This document shows, in pieces, positions 40,218 through 43,200 of a DNA stretch of 64,000 nt. Numbering within the stretch: the stretch's first letter is position 1; each line of letters opens with the position of its first letter. The position numbers and the translations under genes were made by a program. The stretch comes from Candidatus Latescibacterota bacterium (GTDB lineage Bacteria; Latescibacterota; UBA2968). The notes beneath the pieces are model-generated. The model made no database searches. It was given only the letters and a program-made list of their open reading frames with translations, and was not told the DNA's origin. Where the stretch lies: positions 672,001-736,000 of the forward strand of contig OZ244960.1 of NCBI GenBank assembly GCA_965222605.1, in the 5' to 3' direction.

Positions 40218-43200
40218 TTAATCGTCTATCGGCAACCCCACAAATAACCGGCTATACTCATCCGTCAACGGATCGCGCTCGCCCTTTTGCGCTGCGCGGG
40301 CAAATACCACACCCGGCGTTTCCGACCTGCGTGCCCGCGCCAAAACGCCATACCCACCGGGCGCACTCTGCGTCTCCAGATCGCCCTGAATCGCTATCAT
40401 CTCTGCCAGCGCATTGGCCAAACCCCAGCGCGCACCAATCGCCCGCGCAAAAAGCTCCTCTGGCGTCAGCCCCTCCCTAAAACCGTGCTTCAGAGGCGTA
40501 AACTCACCCTGATCATTTCGCGTCACGCCCTGAGGAGCCACATACAGCCTGACTTGCTGCCAATTGGCACGCGCACCACATTCCACCAGAAGCGCGGGAA
40601 TCCCGAGTTCATCATCGTCATATCCGCGAAATCGAGCCAACACAGCCGACACCTCATCGGGATAATCGCGCCAGACATCTGGATCATCGCCCTCTGGCGG
40701 ATCGGGACAATCAAGCGACAAACCGATAAAAGCACTCATCGATGCCCCTGTCTTGCGCGCGACATCAAAACCCCGATCCCACAATCGCGTAGCCAGATCC
40801 AATGCAGCCTTCGCACCATCGCGCGCCATCGCATCCGCCATCCAGCCCATCACCTGATACTTATCGACAAACAACCCCTTTCGCTCAACCTCATCGCCGA
40901 CAATCGACGCAATCTCCTGCAACCCCTCATCCGTCATACTCATATACGCCAGGCCAAACAGCGCGTCGTGCATCGGGTGTACCTTCTCCCGTGCAATCAG
41001 CCCCGGATCCCGATTCAGATGCGCCACTGCCGACAGATGCGCCTCAGCCGACCGCTGGCCTACTTCAGTCACCGGCACAAAAATCGCCACCTGATCGCCA
41101 TCAAAATCCAAATTCATCATCTTGCAAATCGCCACACACACGCGAATTGCATCACCTTCCACGCGCACCGGACGACACGCCACAAAAGCCATTGGCGAAA
41201 ACGCGGGATTGCGAAGCACAACAGTCCATAACCCAGCCATAGCCGCATCCAGAGCTTCCTCCGCTTTTCTCGACCGCCTATCCACTTCTTCAGCCCCCAC
41301 CTCTCGCGCAGCAAACGGCCCAAACAATGTCCATGCCATTTCCTCGGGCACACCGACCTGATCGTATCGCAATTCGGGCGCAGGCGCAGCCACCGAACGC
41401 CCGCTGAACAACGCATGCGCCTGAAATTGCAAACGCGACAACTCGCAAAATGCGCGAACCCGCTCAGATAGCGTTTCAACCGCGCGATCCACCAATATAT
41501 CTGGCGCGCCATTGGCAATCATCTCACTCAAGCGGTCATTGGCCTCCCGCAATGCGCTGGGCACATCTCTCCCGCTCACATGTGTCAACGAATGCCCCGG
41601 CAGCCACGGATGCGGAACCGAGCGCGCAAGCGCGACATCCCCATCGCGTTTCAACGAAAACTCTACGCCGCGTTCATCCAGCGCAACTGCCACTCCACCT
41701 TTTGACAAATGCCCAATTAGATCATCAAACTGAGGGGACGGCGCAGTGGGGACAACAGATCCTGCAACGACGCGGTCAGATAGGGTATCAGCATCGTCTC
41801 GATCCACCGCGCACGTATTGAACAAATCGCCAATCACCCCAAAAGCACCCACTTCTCGCAACGCCAAAAACTCTGTCTCACCCAACCCTTGATCGCGTTG
41901 ATCCGGCTTCACACCCATGTGAATTTTATCTGCGGCCAGATGCAACGTGCGCCCCCAATACACCCACCCCACAGTGGTGCGACGCGGCAGCGTTTCCCCA
42001 TTTAGCGTCAGCGTCTCCATGCCATCTTCTGCCAGCCCATTAGCACTCAAACGAGTGCGTATCTCATCGTCTTTCGGCGCACTGAGCACGGGAACAATAA
42101 CCGGCTCTCCCTCGGCTTTTGCAATGCGCCCGGCCACAGCTTCACGCACCTGCCCAATATTCAACCGCGACGGCAAACCACACACACTCACAATCAGTTC
42201 CACAGGCGTGCCATCCGACAATTTGGGCATCTCTTCATCTTTCACAATGCGCGACACCACACCCTTAAAACCGTGTCGATTGCTCAGTTTATCGCCCGGC
42301 GCAACGCGATTGGGCAACATCATCCGGTTCGCAGCGGACTCACTAATCACAAGCGCGTCTTCGTGCGCATCCCCATTCCACGCCATAAACGCGGTCAGCA
42401 AATTGTACCCCGTCCAAAAATGCGGATCGCGCGGTTCACACCCCGTTTGCACCAACGCGGGTTCCGACTCCAGCGCTTTGCCGTCATATTGCGCGTGATA
42501 CATATGCCACACGCCCTGCTCATCGCGCTGCATATCGGGTCCCGGAGCACCAATCCACTGTCGCATCATATTCACACCCATCAAAACGCGATTGGTATCA
42601 TTGTGTTCCAAAAACGGAACCACCGAAGCACCTATGCCCAGCCGCTTTTTAGGGGCATCGTCTTCAATCACCAGTTTGCCATCGCGAATAGTCGCCCCCT
42701 GAGCCACCTCTAAAATCCGCGCGAGATTCGGTCCCTCAGGCGTGCAATAAGGACACACGCGCCCATCGTGTGACGGATGATAGTAATTTTCTATCCCCTC
42801 ATCGGCCTCACCAATAATTGGGATCAACGTCACCCGCCGCAAATGAACGTGCATATCCTGCCAATTGGTCGCCTGCAAATACTGAGAGGTCGGTTCTTCC
42901 GTAAAAAACGCATAAATCCAATCTCCCAACGGCATCCATGTTTCAACTGCTTCTCCCAGCAGTTCTGGCATATTTTCCAACCGCTCGGCAATATAATCGC
43001 GCACTTGCTCGCCCACACACCGAATTTCAGCGCACGCCAAATCCACCTCAGTCGGCGCGGGAACTACCGTTCGAAAAAAGCCATCCACTTTAAACCGCCC
43101 CCATTCATCGGGCTGAGGGATATTTTTGTACACAACCTCTTGTCCGCCCTGAACCGCGAGATGCAATTCACAGGTGTACTCATCCACCGACATCACCCGA

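What the first reader, a model, noticed from the sequence alone, without database searches (positions are those of the whole stretch)
40221..40500. Mini-RNAP lacks the trigger loop and half of the bridge helix
Seen: after GARWGLA (bridge helix N-terminal half) the sequence diverges and, within about 25 residues, reaches segments resembling the extreme beta' C-terminus ([10 protein letters not shown] versus AAVAGKRDEL). No MRTFH trigger-loop motif is present, and the NRAP motif reads RNPA. Established: trigger-loop loss strongly slows nucleotide addition. Inference: the protein may be a slow or altered enzyme (short-RNA or signal-nucleotide synthesis, RNA cleavage) or a decoy rather than a processive polymerase.
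Basis: partly seen in the sequence, partly recalled or inferred. Interest (0 to 1): 0.7.

Follow-up and report, generated by a model that had tools for sequence, protein, structure and literature searches.

The report
Trigger-loop-less mini RNA polymerase with own sigma
This bacterium carries, beside its normal RNA polymerase, a conserved 1,029-residue single-chain miniature of it that has lost the moving "trigger loop" but kept the catalytic centre, and that always travels with its own sigma factor and a private promoter, so it looks like a second, stripped-down transcription machine.

Summary
The observation largely holds. Window 40221-40500 (- strand) encodes residues 937-1029 of a 1,029-aa fusion of RNA polymerase beta and beta'. 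After GARWGLA (958-964) only 65 residues remain, against about 530 in the host's own beta' between the same landmarks. No trigger-loop motif occurs in 0 of 40 family members, and the genome holds no second beta' rear half.

Two corrections. The bridge helix is not half missing: the model has a continuous 32-residue helix (949-980) whose C-terminal half is merely unconserved. "RNPA" is an Ala-to-Asn change inside the R-A-P motif that the family otherwise keeps.

New context: an ECF-type sigma gene lies upstream in all loci where the flank could be read. It co-occurs with the polymerase in 61 genomes and sits behind a conserved promoter (TGAAC-N15-GGTGTC) that occurs once in this 6.3-Mb genome.

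The catalytic residues are invariant and under purifying selection, so a decoy is unlikely. Most likely this is an active, trigger-loop-independent polymerase serving its own sigma. Binding, rate and template are untested. I found no paper describing the family.

The parts
40218..43307 (-). Gene for the 1,029-aa single-chain beta::beta' mini RNA polymerase (stop codon 40218-40220)
   Evidence: ORF and translation. Pfam Rpb2_3, Rpb2_6 and Rpb1_2. PDB phmmer hits to beta (E 4e-44) and beta' (E 1e-25). AF2 model pLDDT 91.7, pTM 0.89.
41670..43307 (-). Beta-derived half (residues 1-546): N-terminal beta remnant, fork, hybrid-binding double-psi barrel, beta C-terminus. The lobe and the flap are deleted.
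   Evidence: hhalign of mini 88-539 to host beta 389-1254, with host residues of about 786-1025 unmatched. VIA: model 1-540 to 8i23_C 19-1154, Z 30.3, rmsd 2.5. VIA: model 1-544 to 6j9e_C 20-1382, Z 27.8.
40221..41669 (-). Beta'-derived half (residues 547-1029)
   Evidence: hhalign of mini 579-973 to host beta' 263-770, probability 99.9. VIA Z about 29 to bacterial beta' chains, model 1-483 to E. coli 94-1359.
41448..41558 (-). Clamp coiled-coil hairpin (residues 584-620), the usual docking site of sigma region 2, retained
   Evidence: Helices 584-598 and 603-620 in the model. Aligned to the host beta' coiled-coil, with N590, P602 and L605 invariant in the family.
41205..41213 (-). R699-N700-P701: the family's R-A-P motif with Ala changed to Asn in this lineage
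   Evidence: Family alignment.
41091..41114 (-). Catalytic motif N-L-D-F-D-G-D-Q (residues 732-739)
   Evidence: F735, D736, G737, D738 and Q739 invariant, D734 at least 90%. DFDGD in 39 of 40 members.
40368..40463 (-). Bridge helix, residues 949-980: one continuous helix with a conserved N-half (GARWGLA 958-964) and an unconserved C-half
   Evidence: DSSP on both models. Conservation 0.64 against 0.33.
40221..40367 (-). Tail, residues 981-1029: a 7-residue loop, then three short helices. It is the counterpart of the extreme beta' C-terminus and the best conserved part of the region. No trigger-loop hairpin.
   Evidence: Structural ranges. Conservation 0.79-0.82, with R991, A992, G999, A1003, A1005, A1006, E1010, L1014, R1020 and G1024 invariant.
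40160..40196 (-). Terminator-like hairpin (16 pairs, then a T run) just after the polymerase stop codon
   Evidence: Consensus scan.
43347..45140 (-). ABC exporter-type gene sitting between sigma and polymerase. It is a lineage-specific insertion ('cargo').
   Evidence: Pfam ABC_membrane and ABC_tran. Present in 8 closely related loci and absent in others. Contigs of two RNA libraries join 43320 to 45268 without it.
45243..45848 (-). Cognate ECF-type sigma factor, 201 aa, TTG start
   Evidence: Pfam Sigma70_r2 and r4. TIGR02937 over its cut-off. Best PDB match RpoE 1or7, E 2e-18. Start codon fixed by promoter and RBS.
45871..45896 (-). Private ECF-type promoter TGAAC-N15-GGTGTC, ending 22 nt before the sigma start codon
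   Evidence: Conserved in 16 of 19 loci. Single exact occurrence in the 6.34-Mb genome. PWM score 43.4 bits against 17.6 for the next site.
45901..45928 (-). Terminator-like hairpin (12 pairs, then a T run) directly upstream of the promoter, insulating the unit
   Evidence: Consensus scan.

Best explanation
The gene encodes a catalytically active, trigger-loop-less, single-chain RNA polymerase. It descends from bacterial beta and beta'.

It keeps the two catalytic barrels, the fork, a full-length bridge helix, the clamp coiled-coil and the beta' C-terminal clamp segment. It has lost the trigger loop, the jaw and the rest of the beta' rear half, and also the flap, the lobe, the rudder and most of the beta' N-terminus.

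I infer that it serves as the core enzyme for the ECF-type sigma factor encoded with it. Sigma would dock on the retained coiled-coil and read the private promoter TGAAC-N15-GGTGTC. The pair would then transcribe its own operon, plus whatever cargo gene sits between the two genes (an ABC exporter here). Nucleotide addition would proceed without a trigger loop, as in YonO.

From that precedent I expect lower fidelity, no intrinsic RNA cleavage, and no response to factors or drugs that act through the trigger loop or the secondary-channel rim.

Shown here: the anatomy, the conservation, the sigma and promoter linkage, and the absence of a trigger loop in cis or in trans. Inferred: activity, sigma binding, and the template.
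For: Anatomy. Pfam, PDB and hhalign place beta 389-1254 and beta' 263-770 in one chain. The AF2 model has pLDDT 91.7. VIA alignments: beta Z 27.8-30.3, beta' Z 17.0 (full model) and about 29 (half model), with the last residue matching E. coli beta' at about 1359.

Active site kept. DFDGD 39 of 40, RHG.KG 39 of 40, NM.RQ 40 of 40. E316/D317 at least 90%. dN/dS 0.11-0.18.

No trigger loop anywhere. Motifs in 0 of 40 members. PF04998 finds only rpoC in the complete genome. The host beta' rear half used as query at E<=10 finds only itself. No third conserved gene among 19 loci.

Sigma linkage.
- Of 34 loci, sigma lies upstream in 20. In 9 the short flank is filled by an ABC gene, and in 5 the flank is too short to read.
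- Sigma is upstream in 19 of 19 loci with 7-8 kb flanks. The two genes often overlap by 4-40 nt.
- Across 168 genomes of the phylum: both genes 61, polymerase only 4, sigma only 1, neither 102.

Promoter. Found in 16 of 19 loci. It lies 17-24 nt from the start codon in 14 of those 16. It is unique in the genome.

The clamp coiled-coil is retained although nearly everything around it is deleted.

Precedent. YonO has no trigger-loop homologue yet is reported to be efficient and processive (PMC5467207 passages).

RNA-library contigs from 3 studies hold 90-95% identical relatives of both genes. This is weak evidence, because DNA carry-over is not excluded.
Against: The flap, which normally holds sigma region 4, is deleted. 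How a -35/-10 promoter with ordinary spacing would be read is therefore unexplained.

The sigma keeps an ordinary ECF region 2 and region 4. It could therefore just as well work with the host core.

The only strong promoter in the genome is the operon's own. The output of the system is unknown in lineages without cargo.

Lid, rudder, flap and the switch-3 loop are reduced or gone. RNA displacement and processivity may be poor.

Four genomes have the polymerase without a detected sigma. At most 19 candidates per genome were scored.

I could not inspect coordinates. I cannot exclude that R991 or R994 of the short helix after the bridge helix reach the substrate like a rigid mini trigger element, as described for QDE-1 (PMC9508822 abstract and introduction).
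Confidence: 0.5

Rival explanations
1. Ordinary ECF autoregulation. The sigma works with the host core RNA polymerase at the private promoter. The mini polymerase is the regulated effector and acts without sigma. It would make some special product, such as short RNAs, primers or persistent RNA-DNA hybrids, or RNA copied from RNA.
For: The sigma has standard ECF regions 2 and 4 and a standard-looking -35/-10 promoter. The mini polymerase lacks the flap needed for sigma region 4. It also lacks lid, rudder and switch-3 elements that help to peel RNA off the template. The active site is conserved.
Against: This does not explain why the sigma-docking coiled-coil is one of the few clamp parts kept. 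It does not explain why this sigma subfamily is found with the polymerase in 61 of 62 genomes. It does not explain why the two genes are so often translationally coupled. No conserved RNA or template element was found nearby (Rfam none; no third conserved family).
Confidence: 0.27
2. Core mimic or decoy. The protein mainly sequesters its sigma through the retained coiled-coil, taking the place that an anti-sigma factor holds in ordinary ECF operons. Catalysis would be irrelevant.
For: The gene sits where ECF operons usually carry the anti-sigma gene, and no anti-sigma gene is conserved in the module. The coiled-coil is retained. The sigma's only strong target is its own operon.
Against: Catalytic Asp triad, Lys/Arg and Glu/Asp residues are invariant or nearly so across at least 5 phyla. 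The whole 1,029-aa chain is under purifying selection. A loop made only of a sigma and its decoy would have no output.
Confidence: 0.1
3. Split enzyme. The trigger loop and the rest of the beta' rear half are supplied in trans, by a separate gene or by the host's beta'. Some phage polymerases and the yeast killer-plasmid enzyme work this way.
For: There is precedent in an earlier finding of this scan on a phage (e1-5818526) and in the yeast VLE enzyme, which has a small second subunit (PMC6211774 passages).
Against: The complete 6.34-Mb genome has only one PF04998 match, rpoC itself. It has no second match to the host rear half at E<=10. No third conserved gene lies next to the module in 19 loci. 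The beta' C-terminal segment is already present in cis directly after the bridge helix, leaving no free end for a rear half.
Confidence: 0.03

Closest known systems
Canonical bacterial RNA polymerase beta and beta' (rpoB, rpoC), including this genome's own copy
   Same: Same fold and same catalytic motifs. Sequence identity is 25-32% over the structurally aligned parts. The clamp coiled-coil, fork, bridge helix and beta' C-terminal segment are all present.
   Different: It is one chain of 1,029 aa instead of about 2,620 (host beta 1,257 aa plus beta' 1,363 aa). There is no trigger loop, jaw, flap or lobe, no rudder, and most of the beta' N-terminus is gone. It scores far below the NCBIfam rpoB and rpoC cut-offs (171 against 801, and 105 against 964). 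It forms its own clade: 39 of 39 members, support 1.0, stem 1.3 substitutions per site.
Yeast cytoplasmic killer-plasmid (VLE) RNA polymerase, K2ORF6p/Orf6 (982 aa Rpb2::Rpb1 fusion) with small subunit K2ORF7p
   Same: Beta-then-beta' fusion of about 1,000 aa that keeps both barrels and the bridge helix. [quoted passage not shown] Lid, rudder and rim helices are lost (PMC6211774 passages).
   Different: The VLE enzyme lacks the clamp coiled-coil and places the beta' C-terminal regions on a second subunit. Here the coiled-coil and the C-terminal segment are in cis. The partner is a bacterial sigma factor and the setting is bacterial chromosomes. PMC6211774 called the fusion unknown in any other RNAP. 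This bacterial family is a second, independent case.
YonO of Bacillus prophage SPbeta (single-chain two-barrel RNAP)
   Same: A single chain of about 100 kDa with no trigger-loop homologue. It shows that such enzymes can be fast and processive, but are error-prone and lack cleavage activity (PMC5467207 passages).
   Different: YonO shares only a few catalytic residues with multisubunit RNAPs and belongs with the QDE-1/RdRP-like branch. The present protein is plainly beta/beta'-like (VIA Z 28-30 to beta, against 9.7 at rmsd 7.0 to QDE-1). YonO has no known sigma partner. No YonO structure appeared in my fold searches.
ECF sigma / anti-sigma operons
   Same: A two-gene unit led by an ECF sigma, with an autoregulated ECF-type promoter of the GAAC ... 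GTC kind.
   Different: The second gene is a polymerase core rather than an anti-sigma factor. Neither the main text nor the one held supplement of the ECF reclassification paper (PMC7826278) contains the terms Rpb, RpoB, RpoC or RNA_pol.

Membership tests
Two-barrel (double-psi beta-barrel) RNA polymerase superfamily | Two catalytic barrels: a beta'-type barrel with the D-x-D-G-D triad and a beta-type barrel with the paired Lys residues | tested here: met
   Pfam Rpb1_2 and Rpb2_6 over their cut-offs. DFDGD in 39 of 40 and RHG.KG in 39 of 40 members. VIA matches to beta and beta' chains.
Two-barrel (double-psi beta-barrel) RNA polymerase superfamily | Bridge helix linking the two barrels | tested here: met
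   Continuous helix 949-980 in two models. hhalign to the host bridge-helix N-half.
Canonical bacterial RpoB/RpoC | Score over the NCBIfam equivalog cut-offs with the full domain set | tested here: not met
   TIGR02013 rpoB 171 bits against a cut-off of 801. TIGR02386 rpoC 105 bits against 964.
Canonical bacterial RpoB/RpoC | Trigger loop (within Pfam RNA_pol_Rpb1_5) | tested here: not met
   No Rpb1_5 hit in the protein. Trigger-loop motifs in 0 of 40 members. The tail aligns to the beta' C-terminus, not to trigger helices.
Canonical bacterial RpoB/RpoC | Beta flap domain carrying the sigma region 4 docking helix | tested here: not met
   Host beta residues of about 786-1025 have no counterpart. 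Only about 12 residues separate the flanking motifs.
Sigma-dependent holoenzyme core | Clamp coiled-coil (sigma region 2 docking site) present | tested here: met
   hhalign to the host beta' coiled-coil. Helical hairpin 584-620 in the model. Invariant N590, P602 and L605.
Sigma-dependent holoenzyme core | Physical binding of the cognate sigma | not testable with these tools
Only gene linkage and co-occurrence are shown.
Yeast VLE-type Rpb2::Rpb1 fusion polymerase | Beta-then-beta' fusion of about 1,000 aa without a trigger loop in the large chain | tested here: met
   The description of Orf6 comes from PMC2919709 and PMC6211774 passages.
Yeast VLE-type Rpb2::Rpb1 fusion polymerase | Separate small subunit carrying the beta' C-terminal regions, and loss of the clamp coiled-coil | tested here: not met
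   The C-terminal segment is in cis. The coiled-coil is present. No third conserved gene was found.
YonO / QDE-1-like single-chain polymerases | Closer in structure to QDE-1-type enzymes than to beta/beta' | tested here: not met
   QDE-1 7y7p_A Z 9.7 at rmsd 7.0, against beta Z 27.8 and beta' Z 17.0. YonO itself was not among the rows, so likeness to YonO proper is untested.

The most novel reading that the evidence does not exclude
Bacteria of at least five phyla carry a second, self-contained and orthogonal transcription machine made of two proteins: a private ECF-type sigma and a 1,029-aa beta::beta' chain. This machine would need no alpha or omega subunit, no flap and no trigger loop. It would fire from a single private promoter and offer a 'cargo slot' between its two genes. 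It would be the smallest sigma-dependent RNA polymerase known. It would also be a natural experiment showing that a bacterial-type active centre can work without its trigger loop.
Probability: 0.4. Interest if true: 0.9.

Novelty: new variant of a known kind. Interest (0 to 1): 0.8.

Why it matters
The trigger loop is held to be essential for speed, fidelity and proofreading in all cellular RNA polymerases. Here a direct and clearly recognisable descendant of the bacterial enzyme has excised it, together with about 60% of the two large subunits. The result has stayed under purifying selection in many phyla. That makes several long-standing questions directly testable on a tractable 115-kDa single chain:
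- What is the minimal bacterial-type transcription core?
- What does the trigger loop contribute once the rest of the active site is native?
- How can a sigma factor work without a flap?

If the pair proves orthogonal to the host enzyme, it would also be a compact two-gene expression module with its own promoter. An earlier report of this scan reached the same family from another genome. No paper describing it turned up in seven full-text searches.

Tried and rejected
The queue was full, then the tool was declared unavailable. Nothing was folded.
- ESM Atlas could not read P0001. The 92%-identical P0010 only returned its own family's clusters (73 and 135 members) and other fused beta-beta' clusters of 1,221-1,787 aa. 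No structure was held.
- Sequence-only test of the tail against an alignment of 25 beta' sequences (of 62 extracted): the best match is the beta' C-terminus, but at E 0.09-0.16. The claim rests on structure instead.
- Further promoters. In G000, other spacings (N12-N25) gave 0-4 matches each, and the PWM runner-up of 17.6 bits is within the shuffled range of 15.8-20.5. In ten other genomes there were 41 exact matches against 14 for the reversed pattern. Nine are the modules' own promoters. Of the other 32, 27 lie inside stop-free frames of 300 codons or more, and 5 (L134, L142, L163, L165, L166) were not followed up. No regulon emerged.
- Rfam: no match in the window.
- PADLOC: no defence family for the polymerase. 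The sigma and ABC hits are generic.
- PHROGs: only RNAP-beta-like and sigma families.
- Phage and plasmid collections: 0 records cover 80% or more of the protein. The hits are ordinary rpoB/rpoC.
- Conserved neighbours. Apart from shadow frames overlapping the two genes, one family of about 400 aa occurs in 4 of 19 loci at varying distance and was not examined. The 315-aa and 345-aa (DksA/TraR zinc-finger) genes upstream are shared only with close relatives.
- ECF reclassification paper: the terms Rpb, RpoB, RpoC, 'polymerase subunit', Gemmatimonad and PF00562 are absent from the main text. Rpb2, Rpb1, RNA_pol, PF00562, PF00623 and 'polymerase beta' are absent from the one supplement held as text. 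Other supplements were not seen.
- RNA-library contigs: the parts of the stretch without cover in some runs (for example the ABC gene in X1 and X2) carry no inference beyond the contig that bridges them.
Distances from tail residues to the substrate site could not be measured.
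Full report
**What is at the coordinates.** Window 40221-40500 on the - strand is the last 93 codons (residues 937-1029) of ORF 40218..43307, which encodes 1,029 aa.
- Pfam finds Rpb2 domain 3 (142-200), Rpb2 domain 6 (to 464) and Rpb1 domain 2 (to 792) in this one chain.
- A sequence search of the PDB finds bacterial beta (E 4e-44) and beta' (E 1e-25).
- The genome is a single 6.34-Mb contig. It also has ordinary rpoB (1,257 aa) and rpoC (1,363 aa) elsewhere, so this is an extra, paralogous polymerase.

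**Anatomy by profile comparison.** I compared a 40-member family alignment (A1) with the host subunits.
- Mini residues 88-539 match beta 389-1254. The lobe and the flap (host residues of about 786-1025) have no counterpart.
- Mini residues 579-973 match beta' 263-770, that is, from the clamp coiled-coil to the N-terminal half of the bridge helix (probability 99.9).
- The rudder region between the coiled-coil and the S-G-R-S motif is cut from about 45 to about 15 residues.

- GARWGLA is residues 958-964, and only 65 residues follow it.
- In the host beta', about 530 residues lie between the same motif and the C-terminal segment, including GEPGTQLTLRTFHIGG.
- Across the family, [MLIV]RTFH, TFH.GG and GEPGTQ each occur in 0 of 40 members. 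Only 68-87 residues follow G[AS]RxGL in the 27 members that carry that exact motif.
- The tail's likeness to the beta' C-terminus is the best alternative hhalign match, but it is not significant by sequence (E 0.09-0.16).

**Structure settles the tail.**
- The AlphaFold2 model of the whole protein is confident: mean pLDDT 91.7, pTM 0.89, from 40 sequences.
- VIA-align against 48,161 PDB representatives gives M. tuberculosis beta' 6edt_D at Z 17.0 and rmsd 3.1, with 471 residues aligned, model 543-1029 to chain 5-1260.
- The same search gives Pol II Rpb1 at 543-1029 to 12-1462.
- Archaeal subunit A', which ends after the bridge helix, aligns only to model residue 987.
- A separate model of the beta' half (pLDDT 81.4) aligns 460-475 of its 483 residues to bacterial beta' chains at Z about 29. 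Its ends match E. coli residues 94 and 1359.
- So the chain goes from the bridge helix, through a 7-residue loop, straight into the beta' C-terminal clamp segment. The trigger loop, the jaw and everything between are excised.

**Two corrections.**
- The bridge helix is not half missing. Both models show one helix, 949-980. Its C-terminal half is the least conserved stretch (0.33 mean column identity, against 0.64 for the N-half and for the protein as a whole) and is modelled with pLDDT 75-81. The tail that follows is the most conserved part (0.79-0.82).
- 'RNPA' is R699-N700-P701-A702. In the alignment this is the R-A-P motif with Ala replaced in the window's own lineage, and most members keep RAP.

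**Is the trigger loop supplied in trans?** An earlier finding of this scan on a phage showed that such a gap can mean a split enzyme, so I tested for one.
- PF04998 finds only rpoC in the genome.
- The host beta' rear half used as query at E<=10 finds only itself.
- PF00623 finds only rpoC and this gene.
- No third gene is conserved beside the module.

**A real, selected, catalytic-looking protein.**
- More than 100 full-length relatives of about 1,000-1,060 aa at 43-94% identity are listed. Their source names point to Gemmatimonadota, Armatimonadetes, Hydrogenedentes and Chloroflexi.
- 333 cluster representatives score at E<=1e-30, though these include canonical subunits.
- Genome loci come from Latescibacterota, Poribacteria and Caldilineaceae.
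- The gene is present in 65 of 168 genomes of the window's phylum and in 20 of 20 of its genus.
- The family is one clade: 39 of 39 members, support 1.0, stem 1.3 substitutions per site, against 63 canonical beta/beta' pairs.
- DFDGD occurs in 39 of 40, RHG.KG in 39 of 40 and NM.RQ in 40 of 40 members.
- dN/dS is 0.11-0.18 for the gene and 0.08-0.22 for the last 93 codons.

**The sigma factor.**
- In 34 loci examined by tblastn, an ECF-type sigma homologous to window 45243..45848 lies upstream on the same strand in 20 (two of these are cut by the locus edge). In 9 the 1.5-kb flank is filled by an ABC-type gene, as in the window. In 5 the flank is too short to read.
- In 19 loci with 7-8 kb flanks, which I chose for diversity and contig length, sigma is upstream in 19 of 19. 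The genes often overlap, and it is the only conserved neighbour.
- Over the same 168 genomes, sigma orthologues (E<=1e-35) and the polymerase occur together in 61. The polymerase occurs alone in 4, sigma alone in 1 (at a contig edge), and neither in 102. At most 19 candidates per genome were scored.

**The promoter.**
- Upstream of sigma, 16 of 19 loci carry TGAAC-N15 (once N14)-GGTGTC. It ends 17-24 nt before the start codon in 14 of those 16.
- In the window this fixes the sigma start at a TTG (45848).
- The exact pattern occurs once in the genome.
- A weight matrix from 12 non-redundant instances scores that site 43.4 bits, the next best 17.6, and shuffled sequence 15.8-20.5. The window's own site is in the matrix.
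- Terminator-like hairpins lie directly before the promoter and directly after the polymerase gene.
- The unit is therefore insulated and autoregulated, and I could find no other target.

**Cargo between the two genes.**
- The window's lineage carries an ABC exporter gene.
- A congener carries a 396-aa ORF with no Pfam match.
- Others carry nothing.
- Contigs in two RNA libraries join sigma to the polymerase without the ABC gene.

**Reading.**
- The retained coiled-coil, the near-exclusive co-occurrence and the gene coupling point to the polymerase being the core for this sigma.
- The missing flap and the ordinary look of the sigma point the other way, towards the sigma working with the host core.
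- Invariant catalytic residues argue against a pure decoy.
- Whether the enzyme is slow cannot be told. YonO shows that a natural trigger-loop-less relative can be efficient, though inaccurate and unable to cleave RNA (PMC5467207 passages).
- QDE-1 uses a short rigid loop in place of a mobile trigger loop (PMC9508822 abstract and introduction). I could not exclude a similar role for the conserved Arg-rich helix 988-994.

**Literature.**
- The closest architecture in print is the yeast killer-plasmid Orf6 fusion (PMC2919709 and PMC6211774, passages read).
- Seven full-text searches and the ECF reclassification paper gave nothing on this bacterial family.
- An earlier report of this scan describes the same family from another genome. 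It agrees with mine, but it is not independent evidence.

Noticed in passing
window 43347-45140 (-); L085:210-1400: The junction between the sigma gene and the polymerase gene acts as a variable slot within one genus. It holds an ABC exporter gene in 8 loci and a 396-aa ORF with no Pfam match in L085 (by gap size probably also L091). In L087, L090, L094 and L095 it holds nothing. Contigs in two RNA libraries bridge 43320 to 45268 without the ABC gene.
   Followed up: partly
G071 (L115 and L116): One 8.4-Mb genome carries two copies of the whole sigma-polymerase module (50% and 41% identical to the window's polymerase). Each has its own sigma, and each has a promoter of the same type, one with N14 spacing.
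   Followed up: partly
family member P0121 (alignment A1): One of the 40 family members has Asn in place of the first Asp of the catalytic D-F-D-G-D motif.
   Followed up: no
window 45243-45848 (-), sigma residues of about 108-118: The linker between sigma regions 2 and 4 carries an acidic run followed by a conserved V-P-x-W-M-I-D motif (P112 and W114 invariant in 16 sequences). Such conservation is unusual for an ECF linker. It may mark a contact with the reduced core.
   Followed up: no
window 45952-46899 (-) and 46889-47926 (-): Upstream of the module, beyond a terminator, lie two genes: a 315-aa protein with no family and a 345-aa protein whose only hit is a DksA/TraR-type zinc finger (residues 43-77). 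The 315-aa gene recurs upstream of sigma only in close relatives (L087, L090, L094, L095, L101, L107).
   Followed up: partly
window 36976-39684 (-) and 39684-40070 (-): Downstream lies a BlaI-type repressor gene overlapping a 902-aa BlaR1-type M56 peptidase that carries five TonB C-terminal domains in tandem. That domain combination is unusual.
   Followed up: no
window 48988-50755 (-): An MjaI-type restriction endonuclease gene lies next to an N6/N4 DNA methylase gene (a type II restriction-modification pair), between nadC and uvrB.
   Followed up: no
window 27536-30004 (-): An 822-aa leucine-rich-repeat protein with a dockerin type I domain.
   Followed up: no
ESM Atlas clusters: Metagenomes hold several other clusters of fused beta-beta' proteins of 1,221-1,787 aa. 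Some have the Rpb1_5 domain and some lack it. Fusion and pruning of the two large subunits may therefore have happened repeatedly.
   Followed up: no
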